33,508 nt of DNA from Gammaproteobacteria bacterium (lineage in GTDB: Bacteria; Pseudomonadota; Gammaproteobacteria; UBA4575). Under the pieces are notes generated by a model. The model had not been told where the DNA came from, searched no databases, and saw only the letters and a list, made by a program, of their open reading frames with translations. This document shows positions 479 to 21,628 of this stretch, piece after piece (position 1 is the stretch's first letter; each line of letters begins with the position of its first letter). Location: the NCBI GenBank assembly GCA_027297825.1, contig JAPUHH010000034.1, forward strand, positions 1-33,508. The letters are read 5' to 3'. Both the position numbers and the translations under genes were made by a program.

Positions 479-626
479 GCATGGATGCTCAGTGAACACG
501 GACGTTCTCTAGTTTAATAAAACACAAGGACGATGGTCACGGAGGAAACAGAATATGGATGTTCATCAAGGAGGATGTGAAACAGTTGGGTCGTCACGGA
601 GGAAATTGAACACGGACGTTCTCTAG
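479..626 (+). ncRNA. GGA-repeat element: candidate Csr/Rsm-type sponge RNA or CsrA-controlled 5' leader of the 647 ORF
   Basis: 11 GGA trinucleotides in 148 nt. Hairpins present GGA in the loop: gca-TGGA-tgc 479-488, gaac-ACGGAC-gttc 494-507 and again 608-621, catc-AAGGAG-gatg 564-577. Two direct repeats are present: tgaacacggacgttctctag at 493-512 and 607-626, and gtcacggaggaaa at 536-548 and 593-605. No clear promoter or terminator seen. Confidence 0.4.
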
Positions 627-12558: not shown

Positions 12559-14634
12559 TTATGATTGTAGCCGTGAGAAATCTGCTACATGCATAAATAG
12601 TGAATCTATCTTTGCAAGCAGTGCGATTCGATTGTTTTTTAATGCCTCGTCTTTATCCATGACCATTACATCATCAAAAAATGTATCTACAGGTTGACGT
12701 AAATCAGCAAGTTTATTTAAAGCTTGTGCGTAATCACGCTGTTGAAAAAGGCTTTCAACATCGCTAGACAGTTCCTCAATTGCGATATGTAGAACACTCT
12801 CCGCATTCTCTTTAAACAACTCTTTTTGCACTTGTCCGATATTGTTACGATCTGTCTTTTTTAGAATATTGCGAATCCGTTTATTCGCAACTGCAAGACT
12901 ATGCGCATTGGGCAACTTGCGAAAGCTGCATACCGCTTCAATGCGTATGGCAATATCATTGGGTTTAGTTGGCCGGGTTGCTAAAACAGAGTCAATCACA
13001 TCAGGGGCAATATTACGATCTGCAAAATAGGCATGTAGTCGTTCGATAATATAATCAAAAACTTCATCTACCACGGAATCTGCATTTAGGCTTTTTGGGA
13101 ATAGTGTCGCAGCATGCTTTAGAGTTGCCTGCAAATCTATATCTAAGCGCGTTTCAATGATGATGCGTAACAACGCTAAAGATGCTCTGCGCAAACCATA
13201 AGGGTCTTTGATTCCAGTAGGTTTTTTGCCGATTGCAAAAATGCCCACCAAACTGTCAATACGGTCGGCTAAGGCAAGTGTTTGACCCGCTGCGGAAGTT
13301 GGTAGGTCGCCACCGGCTTGGCGCGGTAAGTATTGTTCTTCGATCGCTAATCCAACCTCCTTATCTTCTGCATCGTGTGAGGCTAAATCATGACCAACAA
13401 TGCCTTGTAATTTTGGGAATTCGCCAACCATCTCGGTAAGCAGGTCGCATTTACTTAATGTTGCGGCGCGTTGGCTGTGGTCAGAGTCTGCATTTGTATA
13501 GGCGCTTAAATATTTGGCAAGTTCGCGGATACGCAATGTTTTGTCATGCAAGCTTCCTAGCTGCTTTTCAAATACAACATTCTTAAGCTTTTCTAACTTA
13601 GATTCTAAAGTTTGGTTTTTATCGCGTTGCCAAAAAAACATTGCGTCTTCAAAACGTGGCGTAATGACTTTTTGATTGCCTTGTTTAACTGCCTCCGGTG
13701 AGGTGCTGTCTATATTACTGATAATAATGAATTGCGACAGAAGCTCGCCCTTGTCATCCAGCAAGGGAATGTACTTTTGATTGTCTTGCATGGTGTTAAT
13801 TAACACCTGTTTATTTATTTCCAGAAATTTTTTATCGAACCCTCCTAGTAGAGCATTGGGCCACTCCACTAAGTTAGTGATCTCATCTAACAAGTCTTGT
13901 GTGTAAGAGGGTTTACCCTTTGCGCTTGCTGCAAGTTTATAAACTTGTTCAAGTATGTTTTTTTGCCGAGCTTCAAAATCTGCTAACACATGGCCTTTAA
14001 CTTCCAACAGTTCCTTATAAGCAGAGGCGTGCTTGACGACAATTTGTTTGGGGCTATGAAACCTATGTCCATAAGTTATATTGTTAGCATCGTGACCAAA
14101 TAAGGTTGTAGCGACTGTTTCCTCACCAAAGATGACGAGTAGCCACCGAACAGGGCGAATAAATTCTGCCGTGGTTTCATTCCAACGCATGCGTTTTGGA
14201 GCAGATAGTTTGTTTATAGTAGTTTCGAGAATTTCAGGTAATAGGTCCACGGTGTTTAACCCTGCACGAACTTCTCGAAATATGAGTCTTGGATTGTTAG
14301 AAGTTTTGTCTACAACTAGTTGATCAATCTCAATCCCGCATGAGCGCGCAAAACCCAATGCCGCTTGAGTGGGCTCACCGTTTTTATCGAACGCCGCTAT
14401 CGCATTAGGTCCTTTGCGTTCAATATGTTGGTCTTGTTGCTTACGGTCTAAGCCTTCAATAATTACTGCCAACCTGCGTGGAGTGCAAAACGTTTTGTGT
14501 GCAGAAAAAGTTAATTTTGCTGCGGTAAATTGAGCACAAAGCAATTCGCCGAACTCATTGGATAGCTTTTGCAGAAGTCTTGCGGGTAAATCTTCTGTAC
14601 CAACCTCAATTAATAAATCTTTTTTGCCGCTCAT
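12559..14634 (-). CDS. glyS: glycine--tRNA ligase beta subunit
   Basis: 691 aa. The full-length ORF starts LLIEVGTEDLPAR. Immediately downstream of glyQ. Confidence 0.95.
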   Translation of the reverse strand: MSGKKDLLIEVGTEDLPARLLQKLSNEFGELLCAQFTAAKLTFSAHKTFCTPRRLAVIIEGLDRKQQDQHIERKGPNAIAAFDKNGEPTQAALGFARSCGIEIDQLVVDKTSNNPRLIFREVRAGLNTVDLLPEILETTINKLSAPKRMRWNETTAEFIRPVRWLLVIFGEETVATTLFGHDANNITYGHRFHSPKQIVVKHASAYKELLEVKGHVLADFEARQKNILEQVYKLAASAKGKPSYTQDLLDEITNLVEWPNALLGGFDKKFLEINKQVLINTMQDNQKYIPLLDDKGELLSQFIIISNIDSTSPEAVKQGNQKVITPRFEDAMFFWQRDKNQTLESKLEKLKNVVFEKQLGSLHDKTLRIRELAKYLSAYTNADSDHSQRAATLSKCDLLTEMVGEFPKLQGIVGHDLASHDAEDKEVGLAIEEQYLPRQAGGDLPTSAAGQTLALADRIDSLVGIFAIGKKPTGIKDPYGLRRASLALLRIIIETRLDIDLQATLKHAATLFPKSLNADSVVDEVFDYIIERLHAYFADRNIAPDVIDSVLATRPTKPNDIAIRIEAVCSFRKLPNAHSLAVANKRIRNILKKTDRNNIGQVQKELFKENAESVLHIAIEELSSDVESLFQQRDYAQALNKLADLRQPVDTFFDDVMVMDKDEALKNNRIALLAKIDSLFMHVADFSRLQS

Positions 14635-14642
14635 AATGCTAA

Positions 14643-15542
14643 TTATTTTTTCAGGAGTGGAAAGTTCAGCTGTTCGCGGCTAGCATGATAAGTATTAGCA
14701 ACGGCTTGTGCGAGTTTACGGATGCGTAAAATATATTGTTGGCGCTCCGTTACTGAAATTACTTGGCGTGCGTCTAGTAAATTAAAAGTGTGTGAACACT
14801 TTAAAACGTGATCATAGGCAGCGATCGGAAGCGCAAGTTCGATCAAGTGTTGGCATTCTTTTTCGCTTGAGTCGAAGTTTTTAAATAGAACTTCAGTGCT
14901 GGCATGCTCGAAATTATAGGCCGATTGTTCTACTTCGTTTTGATGATAGAGGTCACGATAGAGGATAGTTCTATCTTCATGCTGGGCCCAGACTAGATCA
15001 TAAACACTGTCGACGTTTTGCAAGTACATAGCGATGCGTTCTAAGCCATAGGTAATTTCCCCGCTCACTGGTTTACATTCTAGGCCGCCGACTTGTTGGA
15101 AGTAGGTAAACTGTGAAATTTCCATGCCGTCTAACCACACCTCCCAACCCAAGCCCCATGCACCTAGGGTTGGAGATTCCCAATTGTCCTCCACGAAACG
15201 AATATCATGCACAAGGGGGTCGATATTAAGTTTTGATAAGGACTCTAAATATAATTGCTGAATATTATCTGGGGACGGTTTTAATATAGTCTGGAATTGG
15301 AAGTAACGCTGCAAGCGGTTTGGGTTATCTCCATAGCGACCGTCTGTGGGCCGGCGACAAGGTTGAGCATACGCTGCACGCCAGGGTTCTGGTCCGAGTG
15401 CACGCAAAAATGTGCTGGGGTGAAATGTTGCTGCACCCATTTCCAGATCATAAGGTTGATCAATGATGCAACCTTGTGCGGCCCAAAATTGTTGTAATCT
15501 GAGTATAAGATCTTGGAGTGAAATAAATGTGTCTTTTGGCAT
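14643..15542 (-). CDS. glyQ: glycine--tRNA ligase alpha subunit
   Basis: 299 aa from the internal ATG ([25 protein letters not shown]...). Collinear with E. coli GlyQ ([37 protein letters not shown]). The 20-codon extension to 15602 has no homology. Confidence 0.93.
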
Positions 15543-15619
15543 GGTGATGGCTGCATGTAGAGCAGCGAGAGTATAGCTAGGCACTTGACTGGCGGCTAGC
15601 ACATGAAGAGATAATTCAG

Positions 15620-15922
15620 ATTTTTAGGATAGGAATGCTGCGTTACGACGTCCTTGTCTCGCAGCTCTCATCCCTAAGACGTTGGTGAAAAGCTCTCCTA
15701 ATGCTGAGCTATTTACATGCTTCCCTGCTTGCCGTGGCATCCTTGCCACTAACAAATTCCATTCAACGCAGCTTGATTTGTAGAGCCGACATCCTTGTCG
15801 TGAAGTATTCCACCCATGTGAATGTGAGAAAATCCTTCTTAATCCACTTCACAAATCAAGCTCACTACCTGCCTATTGTGATAAGGCTTCCATTTTCTTA
15901 TCACTATGAATCCGTTCAGTCC
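15620..15922 (-). ncRNA. GGA-repeat array: candidate Csr/Rsm-type sponge RNA (or CsrA-binding 3' UTR / glyQS leader)
   Basis: 13 GGA motifs on the minus strand in about 275 nt. Perfect loop presentations are cgac-AAGGAT-gtcg (15787-15800), gtggc-AAGGAT-gccac (15734-15749), gaa-CGGA-ttc (15908-15917) and gac-AAGGAC-gtc (15647-15658) nested in gctgcg/cgcagc (15637-15665). ACAAGGAUGU equals the CsrA SELEX core. No ORF of 60 aa or more on this strand. The 3' end is not defined. A weak hairpin plus UUUU lies at 15687-15710. Confidence 0.4.
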
Positions 15923-16051
15923 TTAGGTGCGTTTGTTGGTGCGACACAGTTTTTCCTTAACCGTATGTCGATAAGCCCAAGCCAGCGCTGCCATACTTGC
16001 GGCGATCCATACAACATATAATGTTGTTAATACATCTGTGTTACCGCTCAT
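15923..16051 (-). CDS. 42-aa predicted single-pass membrane mini-protein (MSGNTDVLTTLYVVWIAASMAALAWAYRHTVKEKLCRTNKRT)
   Basis: Hand-translated and below the ORF-track cutoff. Strong AAGGAGG 5 nt upstream of the ATG. One hydrophobic helix is followed by a basic tail, consistent with the positive-inside rule. No homologue recognised. It could instead be the non-coding 5' part of the GGA-rich RNA. Confidence 0.35.
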   Translation of the reverse strand: MSGNTDVLTTLYVVWIAASMAALAWAYRHTVKEKLCRTNKRT

Positions 16052-16120
16052 TTTGACCTCCTTGTTATGGTCTATGCCTGTCGTAGGCATAAATTTAATG
16101 TCCCTATTACCAGTGTATAG

Positions 16121-16136
16121 AGCAAAGGCTGTGCCA
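16121..16136 (-). promoter_or_regulatory. sigma-54 (RpoN) promoter, -24/-12 type
   Basis: The minus strand reads cTGGCACAGCCTTTGCT. This has the exact spacing and matches YTGGCACGrNNNTTGCW at all conserved positions except one. It lies about 70 nt upstream of the mini-ORF ATG. Confidence 0.55.
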
Positions 16137-16520
16137 GGTTTGTTGGCGGTTACGGCTTGTTAGCTAACCTACTGACAGGCCGGACAATACTGATTTACGC
16201 TAGATAAATACCCACGCTCAAAGACAGTCAATAGGACCAAATTTGTCCCCAGAAATTGACTTTTGGTGACCAATTTCGGCATGGCTTTACTGGATGGTTC
16301 TGGAGTAATAGATAAGTAGTTTTTACAGTGGACCCGGTAAGCCATTTCCATCTGTTTGGGCAAATCTGAAAGTCAGGCTGTGAGATCCATCGCCGCCAGC
16401 ATGTAAAAGCTATCACCATCCATTTTAATCCATGCAGTGGCTAGCAATTTGATTGAGATATGAAAATGTCCATGGCGAATAAAAAGTGTAAGTGTTCATG
16501 CGGCGTGACGAAGCTTACGA

Positions 16521-16556
16521 GCACTATTCTGGTGCTTGATGGCACTATGGTGGTGC
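16521..16556. promoter_or_regulatory. two tandem NtrC-type enhancer sites (GCAC-N7-GTGC)
   Basis: GCACtattctgGTGC (16521-16535) and GCACtatggtgGTGC (16542-16556) fit the TGCACC-N5-GGTGCA NtrC dyad. They are centred about 100-120 bp upstream of the glnA sigma-54 promoter. Confidence 0.5.
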
Positions 16557-16643
16557 AAGTATAGGTAACAGTGCCGCTACCTATCATGAAAAAGCTGCGT
16601 ATAATGCCGCACGAGCACTCAATTGAGTGCGCCAGATCGGTAC

Positions 16644-16659
16644 TGGCACATATTGTGCT
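16644..16659 (+). promoter_or_regulatory. sigma-54 promoter of glnA (glnAp2-like)
   Basis: TGGCACatattgTGCT has correct GG-N10-GC spacing and lies about 80 nt upstream of the glnA ATG. A perfect TATAAT at 16600-16605 may be a sigma-70 glnAp1 -10 box. Confidence 0.6.
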
Positions 16660-16740
16660 TTATGCGCCAGTGAGTGAACGCGATTAGCAATTGATCACGA
16701 CCATAAGAATAACATTCGAGTTGAAGCTAAGGAGAAACCC

Positions 16741-18150
16741 ATGTCCGCGAATGATGTGCTCAAGACAATCAATGATGACGAAGTTAAATTCGTTGATTTC
16801 CGATTTACCGATACCCGAGGCAAAGAGCACCATGTCTCCGTGCCGGCCCACACTATTAATGAAGAAGTCTTTCAAAGTGGCAAGATGTTTGATGGCTCAT
16901 CGATCGCCGGCTGGAAAGGTATCAATGAGTCCGACATGATTTTAATGCCAGATCCTGCTACTGCAGTGATCGATCCATTTTTTAGTGACTCTACCATGAT
17001 TTTGCGTTGCGATATCCTCGAACCTTCTACCATGGAGGGCTATGGCCGCGACCCACGCTCGGTCGGTAAACGTGCCGAAGCTTATCTGCGTTCTACGGGA
17101 ATAGCCGATACCGCATATTTTGGTCCTGAGCCTGAGTTTTTTATCTTTGATGATGTCAAATGGGGCAATGACATGGCCGGCGCATTTTATCAAACTGATT
17201 CAGACGAATCGGCATGGAACTCCGCAAAAAGTTTTGAAGATGGCAACATTGGTCATCGCCCCGGTGTTAAGGGCGGATATTTTCCAGTGCCACCTGTTGA
17301 TTCTTTACAGGATTTGCGTTCAGCAATGTGCTTGGTGCTTGAAGAAATGGGCGTGCCTGTTGAAGTGCATCACCATGAAGTGGGCACTGCCGGACAGTGT
17401 GAGATTGGTACACGTTTTAGCACGTTAACCACACGTGGTGACTGGAACCAAATTTTAAAATACGTAGTGCTTAATATGGCAGATAACTATAATAAGACCG
17501 CGACATTTATGCCCAAACCTATTGTGGGTGATAACGGTAGTGGCATGCACGTGCATATGTCTTTAGTTAGAGAGGGTGAAAACTTATTTAATGGCGACTT
17601 GTACGGCAATCTTTCACAAACTGCGCTCTACTATATTGGCGGAATTATTAAGCACGCACGTGCGATCAACGCCTTTTCTAATGCCAGCACCAATAGCTAT
17701 AAGCGTTTAGTGCCTGGCTTTGAAGCACCTGTAATGTTGGCGTATTCTGCACGTAATCGTTCGGCCTCGATTCGTATTCCGTATGAATCTAATGCCAAAG
17801 CTAGAAGAATTGAAGTGCGTTTTGGTGACAATACCGGTAACCCTTACCTTACTTTTGCAGCCATAATGATGGCGGGTCTTGACGGCATTCAAAACCAAAT
17901 TGATCCAGGTCCACCCAACGATAAAGATTTGTATGACCTACCTCCAGAAGAAGAAGCCAATATCCCAACAGTGTGTTCTTCACTAAATCAGGCATTGGAA
18001 GCTCTTGATAACGATCGTGGCTTCCTAAAAGCAGGCGGAGTTTTCACCGATGACTGTATTAATGCCTATATTGAACTGAAAATGGAAGAAGTGACTGCAC
18101 TGCGTCAGGCTACCCATCCGATTGAGTTTGAAATGTATTACAGCTGTTAA
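16741..18150 (+). CDS. glnA: glutamine synthetase, type I
   Basis: 469 aa. [20 protein letters not shown] and the adenylylation-site region [12 protein letters not shown] are classic GlnA signatures. AAGGAG Shine-Dalgarno upstream. Confidence 0.97.
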
Positions 18151-18305: not shown

Positions 18306-18866
18306 ATGCGTGTGAATTTATTAATGTTAGTTGTATTAGCGATTTTCGCTAGCCATGCACAGGCGCGCATTTATACTTGTGTGGATAAAGATGGCAGCAC
18401 TGTATATTCTGATATACCGCCTACGGATGCTTGTCCCAACGCAGAAGAAGTTAACATAGATGCACTTCCCGATTTAATTAGTACCAAGCCTGTAACGGTC
18501 CCAAATAACACATCACGAATTAACAGTCCCGAGCCAGAGGCTGTAGTTGGCGTGTACCAATCACTCGCAATAATCTCACCTGGGGCAGATGAAATTCTGC
18601 GCAATAATGAAGGCAAAGTACAGATTGCATTTCAAGTCTCGCCTGCTTTGAAAGCACGCAGTGGGCATCAATATGTAATTTTCCTTGGTGATAAAGAGGT
18701 ATATAAGGGTACACAGAGTAGTGTCGTGCTAGAAAATATTGATCGTGGCACACATGCGGTCAGCGCTACAGTTATTGCACGTAATGGCCGTATTATCATT
18801 AGTTCTGAATCTGTGAGGTTTACCTTGCATCGATTTTCTAGATTGCAAGGAAATGCATCTTCTTAA
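18306..18866 (+). CDS. DUF4124-like secreted protein
   Basis: 186 aa. Signal peptide MRVNLLMLVVLAIFASHAQA followed by RIYTCVDKDGSTVYSDIPP, the signature opening of DUF4124 proteins. Confidence 0.6.
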   Translation: MRVNLLMLVVLAIFASHAQARIYTCVDKDGSTVYSDIPPTDACPNAEEVNIDALPDLISTKPVTVPNNTSRINSPEPEAVVGVYQSLAIISPGADEILRNNEGKVQIAFQVSPALKARSGHQYVIFLGDKEVYKGTQSSVVLENIDRGTHAVSATVIARNGRIIISSESVRFTLHRFSRLQGNASS

Positions 18867-19113
18867 TGGTTCCGGCTCAGGAATTTCTGGCGGTTTAGGT
18901 TCTTCATCTAGCCCTTAGCGCTAAACCCCATTATGGTGCGTTTTATTCCATAATAACCTAAAGTATGCACTATAATAATGCACTACATTGAGAGTGCATA
19001 ACTTAAGTCATTGATTTAATTAGCATGTACTCCGTGAACTTTTGGATCAATTCTTGCACTTAAGTCGCTATGACAAAGCGATAAGCGATGTATTGAATCT
19101 ACAACCTTTGCTG

Positions 19114-20175
19114 ATGCCTGACATAAAACACAAAAAGATTTTAGATAACTTAGCTTTGGCGATTTTTATCGTCGATGAGGAGTTGCATCTGAACTATTTG
19201 AATCCTGCTGGCGAAGAATTTCTAAGTACTGGCGCAAGACATGCTACAAATCGGCCCATTACTGATTTTATTAGTGACATCGAGGGTGAGTTTATCCCAC
19301 ACATTCAAGACTCTATCCGAAGCGGACATCCCATCACCGAAAGAGAGGTGTCTATAAAACGCTTGGGTGGAGGTGAAATGACTATCAATTGTGTAATAAC
19401 ACCGATGCTAACGAAGGGTGAGAAGGCAACATGTTTGCTTGAAATTACGCAAGTGGACCATTTATTGCGTATTTCTCGCGAAGAGCATTTGCTGCATGAA
19501 GGCCATGCCACTCGTAATATGTTGCGTGGACTCGCGCATGAAATTAAGAACCCATTGGGTGGTTTGCGTGGAGCCGCACAGTTATTAGCCGGTGAACTTA
19601 GTGAACCAGGCTTACACGATTATACCGATGTAATTATTAGTGAGGCAGATCGACTCTGTAAATTAGTTGATCGTATGCTCGGGCCAAAAATTATGCCGGC
19701 GAAACGAAAGATTAATATTCATAACGTGTTAGAGCATGTCCGCCAATTGGCGATTGCTGAAAATCCTAGTGGAGTTATATTTAAAACGGATTACGATCCA
19801 AGCATCCCACTGTTACACGCCGACCGCGATTTGCTAGTACAAGCCACACTTAATATTGTACGTAACGGTGCGCGCGCGGTAGAGATTAATGGCGAGCTTA
19901 CGCTAAAGACACGCGTGTTACGTCAATATACAGTCGGTGACACTTGTCATCGATTAGTCGTGCAAATAAGTATTATCGACAATGGTTGTGGAATTCCCGA
20001 AGAACTAAAATCACAAGTGTTTTTCCCTATGGTTTCTGGTAGCGCGCAAGGAGTAGGTTTAGGGTTATTTATTGCGCAAAATTTAATACATCTTCATGGC
20101 GGACTTATAGAGTTTGATTCAGTTCCAAACCGCACAGAATTTCGCGTTTTGTTGCCATTAAATGGCACAAATTAA
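19114..20175 (+). CDS. glnL: nitrogen regulation sensor histidine kinase NtrB
   Basis: Sequence from ATG 19114 (MPDIKHKKILDNLALAIFIVDEELHLNYLNPAGEEF) aligns with the E. coli NtrB N-terminus. H-box GLAHEIKNPLGG, plus N and G boxes. The ORF-track start 19042 is a TTG that adds 24 unsupported residues. Confidence 0.88.
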   Translation: MPDIKHKKILDNLALAIFIVDEELHLNYLNPAGEEFLSTGARHATNRPITDFISDIEGEFIPHIQDSIRSGHPITEREVSIKRLGGGEMTINCVITPMLTKGEKATCLLEITQVDHLLRISREEHLLHEGHATRNMLRGLAHEIKNPLGGLRGAAQLLAGELSEPGLHDYTDVIISEADRLCKLVDRMLGPKIMPAKRKINIHNVLEHVRQLAIAENPSGVIFKTDYDPSIPLLHADRDLLVQATLNIVRNGARAVEINGELTLKTRVLRQYTVGDTCHRLVVQISIIDNGCGIPEELKSQVFFPMVSGSAQGVGLGLFIAQNLIHLHGGLIEFDSVPNRTEFRVLLPLNGTN

Positions 20176-20218
20176 TTCATCAATGCCAAACAAAGGAGTA
20201 AAACTAATAAACACTATT

Positions 20219-21628
20219 ATGAGTAATACAAACATTTGGGTCATTGATGATGACCAAGCTATGCGCTGGGTATTAGAGCGGGCATTTCAAAAAGCAGACA
20301 TCCCCGTCACAACATTTGAATCTGCTACAACCGCCATGCATGAACTTGAACGCCATATACCTTCAGCCATAATTACTGATGTGCGCATGCCCGGGATGGA
20401 TGGTTTTGAGTTTCTAGAACGAATTAAAACAGATTACCCTGATCTGCCGATCATTATAATGACTGCGCATTCTGATTTACAAAGTGCAGTAGGGGCTTAT
20501 CAAAAAGGAGCGTTTGAATACCTACCTAAGCCATTTGATGTGAATGAGGCCGTAGCACTCGCTAAACGCGCTTGCTTAGCTGCAAATGAACAAACTAACA
20601 AAGTCGAGCCGGTGGCGACCTCTAGAGATGAGTCGACAGCCATTATAGGCGAGTCACCCGCCATGCAAGAAGTTTTCCGCGTTATAGGCAGGCTATCCAA
20701 GTCGAATATTACCGTGCTAATTACTGGTGCATCCGGTACAGGTAAAGAATTAGTTGCGCATGCTTTACACGAAAATAGTCCGCGAGTTGATGGGCCATTT
20801 ATTGCTTTAAATATGGCAGCCATTCCGCGTGATCTACTGGAGTCGGAATTATTTGGGCATGAGAAAGGTGCATTTACGGGCGCGCAAACCTTGCGTAAGG
20901 GACGCTTTGAACAAGCGCAACAAGGCACGCTATTTTTAGATGAAATCGGCGACATGCCCGCAGATTTACAGACACGTTTGTTGCGCGTGTTATCGGATGG
21001 GCACTTTTATAGAGTCGGAGGGCACGAACCTATTAAAGCAGACGTGCGCATCGTTGCGGCTACACACCAAAATTTAGAAGCGCGAGTGCGTAATGGTGAT
21101 TTTCGTGAAGATTTATTTCATCGTCTTAATGTTATTCGTATTAATATTCCAACTTTGCATGAACGTAAGGAAGATATTCCTATTTTATTGCAACATTTTA
21201 TGCAAAGTTCTGCGCATGAATTAAAAAATGAACCGAAAAAACTTTCTAACGAAGTGGTGGAATATTTAAGCGCGTTAAAGTGGCCAGGCAATGTTCGGCA
21301 GTTAGAAAATATCTGCCGTTGGATATCCGTAATGGCTTCTGGTAAAGAAATCCATATGCAAGATTTACCAGCAGAAATGCTTAAGAATGAAATGTCGGTT
21401 GCAGAATTGGTGGATTGGCAAAGTTTGTTAGGCGAATGGGCGGATCGTGAAATGTCTAAAGGAACAAATGCTATCTTAGATAGAATATTGCCGCAGTTTG
21501 AGGCGGTTTTGATTAAGGCTGCAATGCGGAAAACGGGCGGTAAACGACAAGAAGCAGCTAAGCTTTTGGGGTGGGGTAGAAATACTTTGGCCAGAAAGAT
21601 TCAAGAGTTGGGATTGTTTAAGTCTTAA
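20219..21628 (+). CDS. glnG: nitrogen regulation response regulator NtrC (sigma-54 enhancer-binding protein)
   Basis: Sequence from ATG 20219 (MSNTNIWVIDDDQAMRWVLERAF) is collinear with E. coli NtrC. Receiver domain, AAA+ domain with GESGTGKE-like Walker A and GAFTGA loop (EKGAFTGA), and C-terminal Fis-type HTH. The start is uncertain by a few codons. Confidence 0.92.
   Translation: MSNTNIWVIDDDQAMRWVLERAFQKADIPVTTFESATTAMHELERHIPSAIITDVRMPGMDGFEFLERIKTDYPDLPIIIMTAHSDLQSAVGAYQKGAFEYLPKPFDVNEAVALAKRACLAANEQTNKVEPVATSRDESTAIIGESPAMQEVFRVIGRLSKSNITVLITGASGTGKELVAHALHENSPRVDGPFIALNMAAIPRDLLESELFGHEKGAFTGAQTLRKGRFEQAQQGTLFLDEIGDMPADLQTRLLRVLSDGHFYRVGGHEPIKADVRIVAATHQNLEARVRNGDFREDLFHRLNVIRINIPTLHERKEDIPILLQHFMQSSAHELKNEPKKLSNEVVEYLSALKWPGNVRQLENICRWISVMASGKEIHMQDLPAEMLKNEMSVAELVDWQSLLGEWADREMSKGTNAILDRILPQFEAVLIKAAMRKTGGKRQEAAKLLGWGRNTLARKIQELGLFKS

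What the first reader, a model, noticed from the sequence alone, without database searches (positions are those of the whole stretch)
15620..16061. Large GGA-loop array between glyQ and glnA: candidate undescribed Csr/Rsm-family sponge RNA
Read on the minus strand, the supposedly empty spacer upstream of glyQ carries 13 GGA motifs in about 275 nt. The count rises to 16 if the mini-ORF and its AAGGAGG are included. Two are textbook CsrA hairpins: cgac-AAGGAU-gucg, whose ACAAGGAUGU equals the SELEX consensus core, and guggc-AAGGAU-gccac. Others are gaa-CGGA-uuc, gac-AAGGAC-guc nested in a 6-bp outer stem, plus AAUGGAA, AGUGGAU, GAAGGAU, GGUGGAA, UUAGGAG and UUAGGGAU. No ORF of 60 aa or more is on this strand, and the plus-strand 106-aa ORF looks like an artefact of the TCC-rich complement. 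Size and motif density are in the CsrB/CsrC range. Together with the 479-626 element this would give the genome at least two such RNAs, as is common in Pseudomonas, Vibrio and Legionella. The 3' end is unclear, with only a weak 5-bp hairpin plus UUUU at 15687-15710. The region could alternatively be a CsrA-binding 3' UTR of the mini-ORF or a long leader of glyQS.
Basis: partly seen in the sequence, partly recalled or inferred. Interest (0 to 1): 0.7.

Follow-up and report, generated by a model that had tools for sequence, protein, structure and literature searches.

The report
Sigma-54-driven mini-gene with CsrA-sponge-like tail
The glnA–glyQ spacer holds a conserved transcription unit in which a sigma-54-type promoter and a 42-codon membrane-protein gene are followed by about 290 nt of structured RNA with roughly a dozen GGA motifs in hairpin loops, which is most likely a new, unusually wired decoy RNA for the global regulator CsrA/RsmA.

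Summary
There are 16 GGA on the minus strand of 15620-16061, against 3.6±2.2 per 442 nt in the window (dinucleotide-shuffle p≈0.003). The array recurs in all 17 orthologous loci I recovered from uncultured marine Gammaproteobacteria: 9-14 GGA against 0-2 TCC, always glnA<- ->mini-ORF->array->glyQS.

The GGA triplets sit in loops or linkers (mean unpaired probability 0.74 against 0.36 for the rest). Stems covary: 92.6% of cells pair against 23-55% in slid controls, and 11 of 27 pairs show compensatory changes. One hairpin, cgACAAGGAUGUcg, equals the CsrA SELEX core.

It is not a free-standing sRNA gene. An invariant sigma-54 promoter (TGGCAY-N5-TTGC, 16136-16122) with an IHF-like site and a conserved upstream palindrome precedes a conserved 42-aa one-helix ORF (16051-15923, pN/pS≈0.3). 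The array follows with no promoter or terminator in between.

Half the relatives have a canonical terminator after the last hairpin. The window's lineage does not, so its 3' end stays open.

There is no Rfam Csr/Rsm match and no GacA box. CsrA binding, transcription and the presence of csrA in this genome are untested.

Best reading: a CsrA/RsmA-sequestering RNA of the mRNA-tail (RsmW/RsmU) type under sigma-54 control. That makes it a new variant of a known kind.

The parts
16234..16273 (-). Conserved upstream activating region. It reads TTGGTCACCAAAAGTCAATTTCTG followed by the palindrome GGACAAATTTGGTCC, with a TGTC-N20-GACA core. It is the presumed binding site of an unidentified sigma-54 enhancer-binding protein.
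   Evidence: It is conserved in sequence, and at a fixed distance (about -100 to -140 from the -24 element), in the 15 orthologs whose promoter was located. It does not resemble the NtrC sites in front of glnA.
16165..16175 (-). IHF-like site TCAGTAGGTTA. Relatives have ATCAATAGGTTA, which fits WATCAANNNNTTR. It lies between the upstream region and the promoter.
   Evidence: It is conserved at the same position in the orthologs whose promoter was located. The IHF consensus is quoted from general knowledge.
16122..16136 (-). Sigma-54 (-24/-12) promoter TGGCACAGCCTTTGC. The inferred transcription start is near 16110.
   Evidence: It is the only exact TGGCAC-N5-TTGC match in the 33.5-kb window. 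TGGCAY..C.TTGC is invariant in all orthologs that include this region, about 85 nt upstream of the mini-ORF ATG.
16074..16090 (-). 5' UTR hairpin AUGCCU-ACGAC-AGGCAU. In most relatives the loop carries GGA (GCUC-AGGAC-GAGC, GCCA-GGGAU-UGGC).
   Evidence: The stem is kept through sequence changes across orthologs.
16057..16063 (-). Shine-Dalgarno sequence AAGGAGG of the mini-ORF, 5 nt before the ATG. It contains a GGA.
   Evidence: GGAGG is invariant in the 11 orthologs aligned.
15923..16051 (-). Mini-ORF of 42 aa, MSGNTDVLTTLYVVWIAASMAALAWAYRHTVKEKLCRTNKRT, with one predicted transmembrane helix and a basic tail.
   Evidence: Length and frame are kept in 17 orthologs. pN/pS is about 0.30, and variable sites number 33/38 at codon position 3 against 13/38 at position 2. 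The 5.8-billion-protein collection holds 29 clusters, all 64-98% identical. There is no Pfam or NCBIfam family.
15801..15922 (-). 5' half of the GGA array. It contains GAA-CGGA-UUC (15917-15908), GUGAUAAG-(AAAAUGGAAGC)-CUUAUCAC (15904-15878), further GGA at 15845, 15835 and 15811, and the 5' arm (15861-15847) of a long helix.
   Evidence: Clade-B relatives have AAAGC-AAGGAU-GCUUU and ACACAU-ACGGAA-AUGUGU here instead.
15787..15800 (-). Hairpin A, CGAC-AAGGAU-GUCG. ACAAGGAUGU equals the core of the CsrA SELEX consensus RUACARGGAUGU.
   Evidence: The sequence shows this directly. GGA is invariant, and the stem covaries (GAU-ACGGAU-AUC in L090, UGAC..GUCA in L094). The unpaired probability of the GGA is 0.90.
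15771..15785 (-). 3' arm (CUCUACAAAUCAAGC) of a long helix that pairs with 15861-15847 (GCUUGAUUUGUGAAG).
   Evidence: The MFE fold pairs 14 of 15 positions. Relatives keep UGUAGAG/CUCUACA, and L090 has UGCAAG/CUUUGCA (read by eye, not tested statistically).
15734..15749 (-). Hairpin B, GUGGC-AAGGAU-GCCAC, with a 3-bp extension.
   Evidence: All 8 pairs show compensatory changes across 17 sequences. The unpaired probability of the GGA is 1.00.
15719..15728 (-). Hairpin C, GC-AGGGAA-GC.
   Evidence: GGA and the two G-C pairs are conserved, with no covariation. The unpaired probability is 0.96.
15691..15710 (-). Hairpin D, AGCUC-AGCAUUAGGA-GAGCU, followed by UUUUC.
   Evidence: Two of 5 pairs show compensatory change. 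It is conserved as an internal element with two more GGA sites downstream, so it is unlikely to be the 3' end.
15667..15677 (-). The invariant UUAGGGA(U/A)GAG motif, predicted to form the small hairpin UCUUA-GGGA-UGAGA.
   Evidence: It is invariant in 17 of 17 sequences. The unpaired probability is 0.69.
15637..15665 (-). Terminal nested hairpin E, GCUGCG-a-GAC-AAGGAC-GUC-guaa-CGCAGC. It is the last GGA site.
   Evidence: It is nearly invariant. In L103 it is followed directly by UUUUUCUUU. In clade B a separate terminator follows it. In the window the tail is AUUCCUAUCCU, which is not a convincing terminator.
15562..15575 (-). Block TATACTCTCGCTGC, about 20 nt upstream of the glyQ ATG (15542), invariant apart from isolated single-base differences. 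It is the presumed -10 element and G+C-rich discriminator of glyQS's own promoter, and it is not part of the GGA RNA.
   Evidence: It is conserved in 12 of the 13 sequences (the thirteenth contig ends before it) and in further orthologs. In clade B it lies downstream of the terminator.

Best explanation
A sigma-54 RNA polymerase, helped by an unidentified enhancer-binding activator and IHF, starts transcription near 16110 on the minus strand. The roughly 475-nt or longer transcript first encodes a conserved 42-aa single-helix membrane protein. It then continues into a roughly 290-nt structured domain that displays about 11-13 GGA motifs, mostly in the loops of short hairpins spaced 9-46 nt apart.

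This domain, as part of the full mRNA or after processing to a stable 3' fragment, binds several dimers of the global translational regulator CsrA/RsmA and titrates them away from their mRNA targets. In that way it couples whatever signal the sigma-54 activator senses to the Csr regulon. The mini-ORF's own leader (a GGA hairpin in most relatives, plus the GGA-containing Shine-Dalgarno) suggests that its translation is itself repressed by CsrA.

Shown: motif enrichment, conservation, loop exposure, stem covariation, promoter conservation, coding constraint on the mini-ORF, and strict co-occurrence of ORF and array.

Inferred: transcription from this promoter, co-transcription of ORF and array, CsrA binding, and the sponge effect.
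For: - **Enrichment.** There are 16 GGA against about 9 expected from shuffles and about 3.6 for the window mean. Such density occurs in 0.16% of windows of unrelated DNA.
- **Conservation.** All 17 orthologous loci carry 9-14 GGA and 0-2 TCC between the mini-ORF and glyQ.
- **Exposure.** GGA triplets are predicted unpaired with mean probability 0.74, against 0.36 for other bases, across the 17 orthologs.
- **Covariation.** On a MAFFT alignment that was not fitted to the structure, 92.6% of cells pair against 23-55% for slid controls. Eleven of 27 pairs have compensatory changes, against 1-6 in slid controls and 0 of 500 shuffles reaching that number.
- **Motif match.** Hairpin A matches the CsrA SELEX core ACARGGAUGU (sequence; consensus as quoted in PMC4347634).
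- **Promoter.** The sigma-54 promoter is the only exact match in the window and is invariant in relatives, with an IHF-like site and an upstream palindrome at fixed distances.
- **One unit.** No sigma-70-like promoter or terminator lies between ORF and array.
- **3' end in relatives.** A canonical intrinsic terminator follows the last GGA hairpin in all 10 clade-B relatives, with compensatory stem changes in L102.
- **Linkage.** ORF and array are strictly linked: the covariance model hits only the 17 ORF-bearing loci and nothing in 80 other glyQ loci or in the nearest outgroup, L091/L092.
- **Precedent.** RsmW and RsmU are RsmA sponges derived from mRNA 3' UTRs and are independent of GacA.
Against: - No Rfam Csr/Rsm family matches, even at E≤10.
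- No GacA/UvrY upstream box is present in the window or in any ortholog.
- csrA is not in the window. I could not check it in the rest of the genome, so its presence rests on the general near-ubiquity of CsrA in Gammaproteobacteria.
- No transcript data are available.
- In the window's own lineage there is no convincing terminator. Only about 60 nt separate the last hairpin from the glyQ promoter block, so a discrete RNA end is unproven.
- The whole-region fold is not markedly more stable than shuffles (z=-1.46).
- Several helices are invariant and therefore uninformative.
Confidence: 0.6

Rival explanations
1. The GGA array is a cis-acting regulatory tail. CsrA, or another factor, binds the 3' UTR together with the 5' leader only to control the stability or translation of the mini-ORF mRNA. 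The RNA is then a CsrA target rather than a sponge that changes free CsrA levels.
For: The array is physically part of the mini-ORF transcript, and the two are strictly co-inherited. The leader has the classic two-site layout for CsrA repression: a GGA hairpin in most relatives plus GGA in the Shine-Dalgarno.
Against: Eleven to thirteen sites far exceed what known CsrA-repressed mRNAs need (typically 2-6, from general knowledge). That number is in the range of CsrB, CsrC and RsmZ. Known multi-GGA mRNA tails (RsmW, RsmU) act in trans. The difference between target and sponge is quantitative and depends on abundance, which is unknown here.
Confidence: 0.17
2. The array is a long 5' leader of glyQS, in this lineage at least. 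Transcription from the sigma-54 promoter reads through into glyQS, and the structured GGA region modulates glycyl-tRNA synthetase expression.
For: In the window and the other clade-A relatives, no terminator separates the array from glyQ, and the gap is only about 60 nt. The gene order is invariant.
Against: All 10 clade-B relatives have a strong intrinsic terminator directly after the array. All relatives whose contigs reach that far have a nearly invariant TATACTCTCGCTGC block downstream of it and in front of glyQ. In L103 the last hairpin is followed by a U-run. No T-box or other known leader was found. The nearest outgroup has glnA-glyQS without the element.
Confidence: 0.08
3. It is a conserved structured RNA whose GGA loops are recognised by some partner other than CsrA, such as a different RNA-binding protein or the ribosome's anti-Shine-Dalgarno. 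Alternatively it has a structural role unrelated to protein titration.
For: There is no sequence homology to known Csr/Rsm RNAs, and the presence of csrA is unverified. The sigma-54 control has no precedent that I could find among Csr sponges.
Against: A(N)GGA in the loops of 3-5-bp hairpins, with an exact match to the SELEX core and 9-46-nt spacing, is the specific signature of CsrA/RsmA ligands. I know of no other bacterial protein with this preference.
Confidence: 0.12
4. It is a chance or compositional artefact: a purine-rich spacer, or the mirror image of a plus-strand gene.
For: The region is A+G-rich, and the window contains a 106-aa plus-strand ORF.
Against: Shuffle p is about 0.003. 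The motifs are conserved position by position over 17 species-level relatives, with compensatory stem changes. The antisense ORF is broken in every relative.
Confidence: 0.02

Closest known systems
RsmW of Pseudomonas aeruginosa (PMC4950607)
   Same: It is an RsmA-binding, multi-GGA RNA lying directly downstream of a small hypothetical ORF (PA4570). There is no terminator in between and no promoter of its own. It is expressed as one unit, appears to be processed from the 3' UTR, and is not activated by GacA.
   Different: RsmW has 7 GGA (3 of them in loops) in about 120-220 nt. This element has 13 in about 290 nt. The promoter upstream of PA4570 is described with -35/-10 elements, whereas here it is a sigma-54 promoter with a UAS and an IHF-like site. 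There is no sequence similarity. PA4570 is a 74-aa basic protein, not a 42-aa membrane peptide.
RsmU (sRX061) of Xanthomonas campestris (PMC7694677)
   Same: It is an RsmA sequester that belongs to none of the known sRNA families and derives from the 3' UTR of a protein-coding mRNA (comEA). It ends at a rho-independent terminator.
   Different: RsmU has only 4 predicted GGA motifs, and the mutant still bound RsmA. The parent gene is different, and no sigma-54 promoter is reported.
CsrB/CsrC and RsmX/RsmY/RsmZ (Rfam Csr/Rsm families)
   Same: Size range, GGA count, GGA placed in hairpin loops, and multiple copies per genome are all comparable.
   Different: No covariance-model match was found at any threshold tried. 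There is no TGTAAG-N6-CTTACA GacA/UvrY box. Those RNAs are free-standing non-coding genes, whereas this one is fused to a coding mini-gene.
CrcZ/CrcY of Pseudomonas (PMC8395346, PMC6296734)
   Same: [quoted passage not shown] That promoter logic is the same as inferred here.
   Different: CrcZ titrates Hfq/Crc through A-rich motifs, not CsrA through GGA. CbrAB is restricted to pseudomonads. The upstream site here (TGTC-N20-GACA, GGACAAATTTGGTCC) is different.
mRNAs that titrate CsrA: Campylobacter flaA (PMC4894983) and the Salmonella fim leader (the latter from general knowledge)
   Same: They are protein-coding transcripts that also act as CsrA antagonists, so they are dual-function mRNAs.
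   Different: Those use a few sites in a 5' UTR of an abundant mRNA. They do not have a dedicated, structured array of more than 10 sites downstream of the coding region.

Membership tests
CsrA/RsmA-sequestering RNA (functional class) | Many GGA / A(N)GGA motifs, well above chance | tested here: met
   There are 16 (13 non-coding) against about 9 (about 7) in shuffles. The 0.16% tail of the background is reached. All 17 orthologs have 9-14.
CsrA/RsmA-sequestering RNA (functional class) | GGA presented in hairpin loops or single-stranded linkers, with the hairpins under selection | tested here: met
   The unpaired probability is 0.74 against 0.36. 92.6% of cells pair, and 11 of 27 pairs carry compensatory changes, above all controls.
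CsrA/RsmA-sequestering RNA (functional class) | Sites resembling the SELEX consensus RUACARGGAUGU | tested here: met
   Hairpin A reads ACAAGGAUGU (10 of 10 of the core). Hairpin E reads ACAAGGACGU (9 of 10). The sequence comes, and the consensus from papers found.
CsrA/RsmA-sequestering RNA (functional class) | Binds CsrA and relieves repression of CsrA targets | not testable with these tools
   This needs EMSA, RIP or heterologous complementation.
CsrA/RsmA-sequestering RNA (functional class) | The host encodes CsrA/RsmA | not testable with these tools
   There is no csrA in the 33.5-kb window. The rest of the genome could not be fetched because the quotas were exhausted.
CsrA/RsmA-sequestering RNA (functional class) | Discrete transcript with its own promoter and terminator | tested here: inconclusive
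   A conserved sigma-54 promoter lies upstream of the mini-ORF. A terminator is present in clade-B relatives and a U-run in L103. There is none in the window's lineage.
Rfam Csr/Rsm families (CsrB, CsrC, RsmX, RsmY, RsmZ and others) | Covariance-model match at or near the gathering score | tested here: not met
   There is no hit at gathering thresholds on the whole window, and no Csr/Rsm hit even at E≤10 on 15400-16800.
GacA/UvrY (BarA) regulon sRNAs | Upstream activating sequence TGTAAG-N6-CTTACA | tested here: not met
   No match with ≤3 mismatches occurs in the spacer. There is no conserved match with ≤2 mismatches in the 17 orthologs, only two scattered non-homologous hits.
Sigma-54-dependent promoter | -24 GG and -12 GC with exact spacing (TGGCAC-N5-TTGC) | tested here: met
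   There is an exact match at 16136-16122, the only one in the window. It is invariant in orthologs.
Sigma-54-dependent promoter | Upstream enhancer (activator sites about 80-150 bp upstream), often with an intervening IHF site | tested here: met
   A conserved palindromic block lies at -100 to -140 and an ATCA(A/G)TAGGTTA block at about -40 from the -24 element, both at fixed distances. The identity of the activator is unknown. These sites differ from the GCAC-N7-GTGC NtrC sites at 16521-16556.
Sigma-54-dependent promoter | Transcription requires RpoN and an AAA+ activator | not testable with these tools
   This needs genetics or in-vitro transcription. NtrB and NtrC are encoded 3 kb away, but their sites are not at this promoter.
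3'-UTR-derived Rsm sponge (RsmW/RsmU type) | GGA RNA directly downstream of an ORF, with no intervening promoter or terminator | tested here: met
   no such signals; the array starts at the stop codon.
3'-UTR-derived Rsm sponge (RsmW/RsmU type) | Processed to a stable shorter RNA | not testable with these tools
   This needs a Northern blot or RNA-seq.
glyQS leader / T-box | Known leader model, continuity with glyQ | tested here: not met
   There is no T-box or other leader hit. A terminator and a separate promoter-like block intervene in the clade-B relatives.

The most novel reading that the evidence does not exclude
This would be a dual-function RNA under sigma-54 enhancer control. One transcript would make a conserved 42-aa membrane peptide and, through its 13-site GGA tail, sequester CsrA.

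A signal sensed by an AAA+ activator would then reprogram the Csr regulon directly. That signal could be related to nitrogen or carbon balance, given the invariant position back-to-back with the NtrC-controlled glnA-ntrBC locus.

As far as I could find, this would be the first Csr-type sponge driven by sigma-54 instead of the GacA/UvrY family, and the first that also encodes a conserved protein. In the terminator-less lineage, read-through might additionally couple it to glyQS.
Probability: 0.35. Interest if true: 0.72.

Novelty: new variant of a known kind. Interest (0 to 1): 0.58.

Why it matters
Csr/Rsm sponges are the main input channel into one of the most global post-transcriptional networks in bacteria. 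Almost all known ones are wired to the GacS/GacA (BarA/UvrY) two-component system.

A conserved sponge-like RNA that is instead placed behind a sigma-54 promoter, with its own enhancer and an IHF-like site, would show that the Csr network can be plugged into a different class of signal-transduction system. It is also fused to a small membrane-protein gene under purifying selection. That would add a case to the short list of dual-function (coding plus protein-titrating) RNAs.

The element also defines a new structured RNA family and a new small-protein family, neither annotated, in a clade of uncultured marine Gammaproteobacteria that encode phosphoribulokinase and so may fix carbon through the Calvin cycle. 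Nothing is known about post-transcriptional control in that clade.

The central prediction, GGA-dependent CsrA binding, can be tested in vitro and in E. coli without cultivating the organism.

Tried and rejected
- **Rfam.** I scanned the whole window at gathering thresholds and 15400-16800 at E≤10. The only hits were chance snoRNA-type hits, with no Csr/Rsm family among them.
- **GacA box.** I searched for TGTAAG-N6-CTTACA in the window and in 17 orthologs. Nothing conserved was found.
- **GTDB genome scan.** A scan of species-representative genomes with GlyQ returned only relatives of 73% identity or less, with no element. That spent the single genome scan without giving close relatives. Close relatives came instead from the protein collection and the encoding-contig look-ups and from a metagenome scan with the mini-ORF.
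- **Exact look-up of the 299-aa GlyQ.** This failed because the gene was called from an upstream GTG (319 aa).
- **RNAalifold on the raw alignment.** It proposed pairing CUCUA with the downstream UAGGG. I set this aside in favour of pairing with the upstream UGUAGAG, because L090 changes both arms together. That helix was only inspected by eye.
- **Identity of the activator.** I compared the upstream site with the NtrC sites that are present before glnA, with CbrB (TGTTAC/GTAACA), and, from memory, with GlrR (TGTC-N10-GACA), FleQ and NifA motifs. None fits. NtrC acting from its sites about 400 bp away is not excluded.
- **csrA.** A tblastn search of the window found nothing.
- **Families for the 42-aa protein.** Pfam and NCBIfam gave nothing.
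- **Plus-strand 106-aa ORF.** I rejected it as a gene.
- **Paralogy with the 479-626 element.** I rejected sequence-level paralogy, because the covariance model gives no hit there.
Full report
**1. The observation**

Read on the minus strand, 15620-16061 contains exactly 16 GGA and only 2 TCC. Thirteen GGA lie in the 286 nt between the stop codon of a mini-ORF and the last hairpin (15922-15637). Two lie inside the ORF and one lies in its AAGGAGG ribosome-binding site.

The window average is 3.6±2.2 GGA per 442 nt on this strand. Dinucleotide-preserving shuffles of the region give 9.2±2.2 (p=0.0025). For the non-coding 316 nt they give 7.2±1.9 against 13 observed (p=0.0035).

In 700 kb of DNA from 80 other Gammaproteobacteria, only 0.16% of 300-nt windows reach 13 GGA. 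In this window only two places do: this one, and the plus strand around 299-840.

**2. Context**

The flanking genes are as follows.

| Gene | Coordinates | Strand | Source |
|---|---|---|---|
| glyS | 12559-14634 | - | |
| glyQ | 14643-15542 | - | |
| glnA | 16741-18150 | + | |
| DUF4124 gene | 18306-18866 | + | |
| ntrB | 19042-20175 | + | |
| ntrC | 20162-21628 | + | |

The glnA-glyQ spacer is 1.2 kb long. The window is a contig of an uncultured "Gammaproteobacteria bacterium" MAG. It also encodes phosphoribulokinase.

**3. Relatives**

Closer relatives came from three sources:

- the large protein collection followed by encoding-contig look-ups;
- a metagenome scan with an alignment of the mini-ORF protein;
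- look-ups of further mini-ORF homologues.

This gave 17 non-redundant orthologous loci, with GlyQ 79-93% identical. Every one has the same order: glnA <- spacer -> mini-ORF -> 230-300-nt array with 9-14 GGA and 0-2 TCC -> glyQS.

The nearest outgroup (L091/L092, GlyQ 81%, 50% G+C) has glnA next to glyQS with a short spacer. It has neither the ORF nor the array.

**4. The RNA is structured and shows its GGAs**

I aligned the 3' domain (window 15799-15631) of the 17 loci with MAFFT, without reference to any structure (A4). Six helices drawn from the window sequence were then tested.

| Measure | This structure | Controls |
|---|---|---|
| Cells forming standard pairs | 92.6% | 23-55% when the 3' partners are slid by 1-3 columns |
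| Pairs with compensatory double changes (of 27) | 11 | 1-6 in slid versions; 0 of 500 column shuffles reach 11 |

Individual helices behave as follows:

- Hairpin B (GUGGC-AAGGAU-GCCAC) covaries at all eight pairs. Variants include GUAAC-UAAGGACA-GUUAC and AUGGU-AUGGAU-ACCAU.
- Hairpin A covaries as well (GAU-ACGGAU-AUC, UGAC..GUCA).
- The terminal nested hairpin and hairpin C are invariant, so they are uninformative.

The GGA triplets themselves are invariant in the loops. Across the 17 full arrays, the partition-function probability of being unpaired averages 0.74 for GGA bases and 0.36 for all other bases. In the window, 10 of 13 GGA exceed 0.5.

Successive GGAs are 9-46 nt apart. Hairpin A reads cgACAAGGAUGUcg, which is the core of the CsrA SELEX consensus RUACARGGAUGU (consensus as quoted in the papers).

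The whole-region fold is not strikingly stable (z=-1.46). That is expected for an RNA made of short hairpins.

**5. It is the tail of a small gene, not a lone sRNA gene**

Directly upstream lies a 42-codon ORF (16051-15923) with an AAGGAGG site 5 nt before its ATG. Several results indicate that it is a real coding gene:

- It is kept in frame and length in all 17 loci.
- pN/pS is about 0.30.
- Thirty-three of 38 third codon positions vary, against 13 of 38 second positions.
- The product has one hydrophobic helix and a basic tail.
- The 5.8-billion-protein collection holds only 29 clusters of it, all 64-98% identical and none with a Pfam domain. Direct scans of the window's protein against Pfam and NCBIfam found no family.

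No sigma-70-like promoter or terminator is detectable between the ORF and the array.

A covariance model of the 3' domain (R1) finds only the 17 ORF-bearing loci. It finds nothing in the 80 distant glyQ loci, in the outgroup, or elsewhere in the window. ORF and array are therefore inherited as one unit.

**6. The promoter**

About 85 nt upstream of the ATG is TGGCACAGCCTTTGC (16136-16122). This is the only exact TGGCAC-N5-TTGC match in the window. It is invariant as TGGCAY..C.TTGC in every ortholog that includes the region. This is a canonical sigma-54 -24/-12 element, and it places the start near 16110.

Two further blocks sit at fixed distances upstream:

- An IHF-like block: TCAGTAGGTTA in the window, and ATCAATAGGTTA in relatives, which fits WATCAANNNNTTR.
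- A conserved 40-bp block, 100-140 bp upstream, containing TTTGTCACCA..GNCAAATT..GGACAAATTTGGTCC.

This is the classical enhancer-IHF-sigma-54 layout. glnA has its own sigma-54 promoter (16644-16658) and two GCAC-N7-GTGC NtrC-type sites (16521-16556). The mini-gene's upstream block does not resemble these, so its activator is probably a different enhancer-binding protein. NtrC acting at about 400 bp is not excluded.

No GacA/UvrY box occurs in the window spacer or in any ortholog.

**7. The 3' end**

All ten clade-B relatives have a textbook intrinsic terminator immediately after the last GGA hairpin (AAAGGCAAGC..GCUUGCCUUUUUU; called by the scanner in L086). L102 has compensatory stem changes in it. 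In the nine whose contigs reach that far, about 100 nt of unconserved sequence follows, and then a nearly invariant TATACTCTCGCTGC block just before glyQ.

In the seven 'clade A' loci, which include the window, that terminator is missing. Only about 60 nt separate the last hairpin from the glyQ block. In L103 the last hairpin is followed directly by UUUUUCUUU. In the window the tail is AUUCCUAUCCU, which is unconvincing.

The hairpin-plus-UUUU at 15710-15687 is a conserved internal element (hairpin D), not the end.

**8. What it most likely is**

The combination fits a CsrA/RsmA-sequestering RNA:

- about a dozen A(N)GGA motifs in the loops of short, covarying hairpins;
- an exact SELEX-core site;
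- a size of about 290 nt;
- a dedicated terminator in half the lineage;
- no conserved ORF on either strand of the array.

In architecture it is closest to RsmW, which lies in the 3' UTR of the small ORF PA4570, forms one transcription unit with it and is GacA-independent (PMC4950607). It is also close to RsmU, which lies in the 3' UTR of comEA and is "not a member of the sRNA families known to antagonize RsmA" (PMC7694677).

Its promoter logic resembles that of CrcZ, an RpoN/CbrB/IHF-driven decoy, but CrcZ titrates Hfq rather than CsrA (PMC8395346 and PMC6296734).

In most relatives the mini-ORF leader carries a GGA hairpin in addition to the GGA-containing Shine-Dalgarno. This suggests that the peptide's translation is itself CsrA-sensitive.

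Three literature searches found no sigma-54-driven Csr/Rsm sponge. Failing to find one is not proof that none exists.

**9. Membership versus mechanism**

As a sequence family it is not CsrB, CsrC, RsmX, RsmY or RsmZ, because no Rfam hit appears even at E≤10. It is not part of a Gac-type regulon by the usual promoter criterion either.

As a functional class it meets every criterion that can be computed: motif number, loop presentation, consensus match and conservation. The defining biochemical criterion, CsrA binding and titration, is untested. So is the presence of csrA in this genome. It is not in the window, and I had no remaining quota to fetch other parts of the genome.

**10. Rivals**

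- The array could be a purely cis-acting CsrA-responsive tail of the mini-ORF mRNA. Its 11-13 sites argue for titration, but abundance is unknown.
- It could be a glyQS leader in the terminator-less lineage. The terminator and separate promoter block in the sister lineage argue against this, as does the absence of any known leader.
- It could be the ligand of an unknown partner.
- Chance, or an antisense gene, is excluded.

**11. Verdict**

The refinement is that the element is the GGA-rich tail of a sigma-54-promoted, protein-coding mini-gene, conserved in a narrow clade of uncultured marine Gammaproteobacteria. I rate it a new variant of a known kind.

| Quantity | Value |
|---|---|
| Confidence that it is a CsrA-titrating RNA | about 0.6 |
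| Overall interest | 0.58 |
| Probability of the full sigma-54 dual-function model | about 0.35 |
| Interest if that model is true | about 0.7 |

Noticed in passing
window 479-626 (+), wider 299-840: This is the only other GGA-dense stretch of the window (13 GGA per 300 nt). It lies between two small ORFs (about 218-452 and 647-964), both without family matches. It carries hairpins such as GAAC-ACGGAC-GUUC and CAUC-AAGGAG-GAUG, and a 21-nt direct repeat GTGAACACGGACGTTCTCTAG at 491-511 and 607-627. Its only Rfam signal is an insignificant RsmY hit (10.7 bits, E=9.4). My covariance model of the glyQ-side element does not match it. It could be a second CsrA-binding RNA or a CsrA-regulated leader of the 105-aa ORF.
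   Followed up: partly
window 16521-16658 (+): This is a textbook glnA control region. It has a sigma-54 promoter TGGCACATATTGTGC (16644-16658), two NtrC-type sites GCAC-N7-GTGC (16521-16535 and 16542-16556), and, between them, an invariant block that reads GCTGCGTATAATG on the glnA strand. That block looks like a sigma-70 glnAp1 -10 element.
   Followed up: partly
window 15923-16051 (-) and loci L085-L107: The 42-aa single-helix protein forms a small unannotated family: 29 clusters, deposited only as 'hypothetical protein', with no Pfam or NCBIfam model. It is always found between glnA and glyQS. Its function is unknown.
   Followed up: partly
window 15562-15605 (-): The block GCTAGCCGCCAGTCAAGTGCCTAGC-TATACTCTCGCTGC lies in front of glyQ. 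The TATACTCTCGCTGC part is invariant apart from isolated single-base differences in the relatives that include it. It looks like a -10 element with a G+C-rich discriminator, of the kind seen at stringent-control promoters, but it has a poor -35 and the sigma-70 scanner did not call it.
   Followed up: no
window 16074-16090 (-) compared with L086, L090, L094 and others: The 5' UTR hairpin of the mini-gene has GGA in its loop in most relatives (AGGAC, GGGAU, UGGAC), but ACGAC in the window itself. This lineage may therefore have lost one presumptive CsrA site in the leader.
   Followed up: no
window 18306-18866 (+): A DUF4124 protein gene sits between glnA and ntrB, and the same arrangement is seen in most relatives fetched. 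No NCBIfam family matches it.
   Followed up: no
loci L086, L088, L095-L102, L105 compared with window, L085, L087, L090, L094, L103, L104: The family splits into two lineages. One has a dedicated intrinsic terminator plus about 100 nt of extra spacer after the array. The other has neither. It is not known which state is ancestral.
   Followed up: partly
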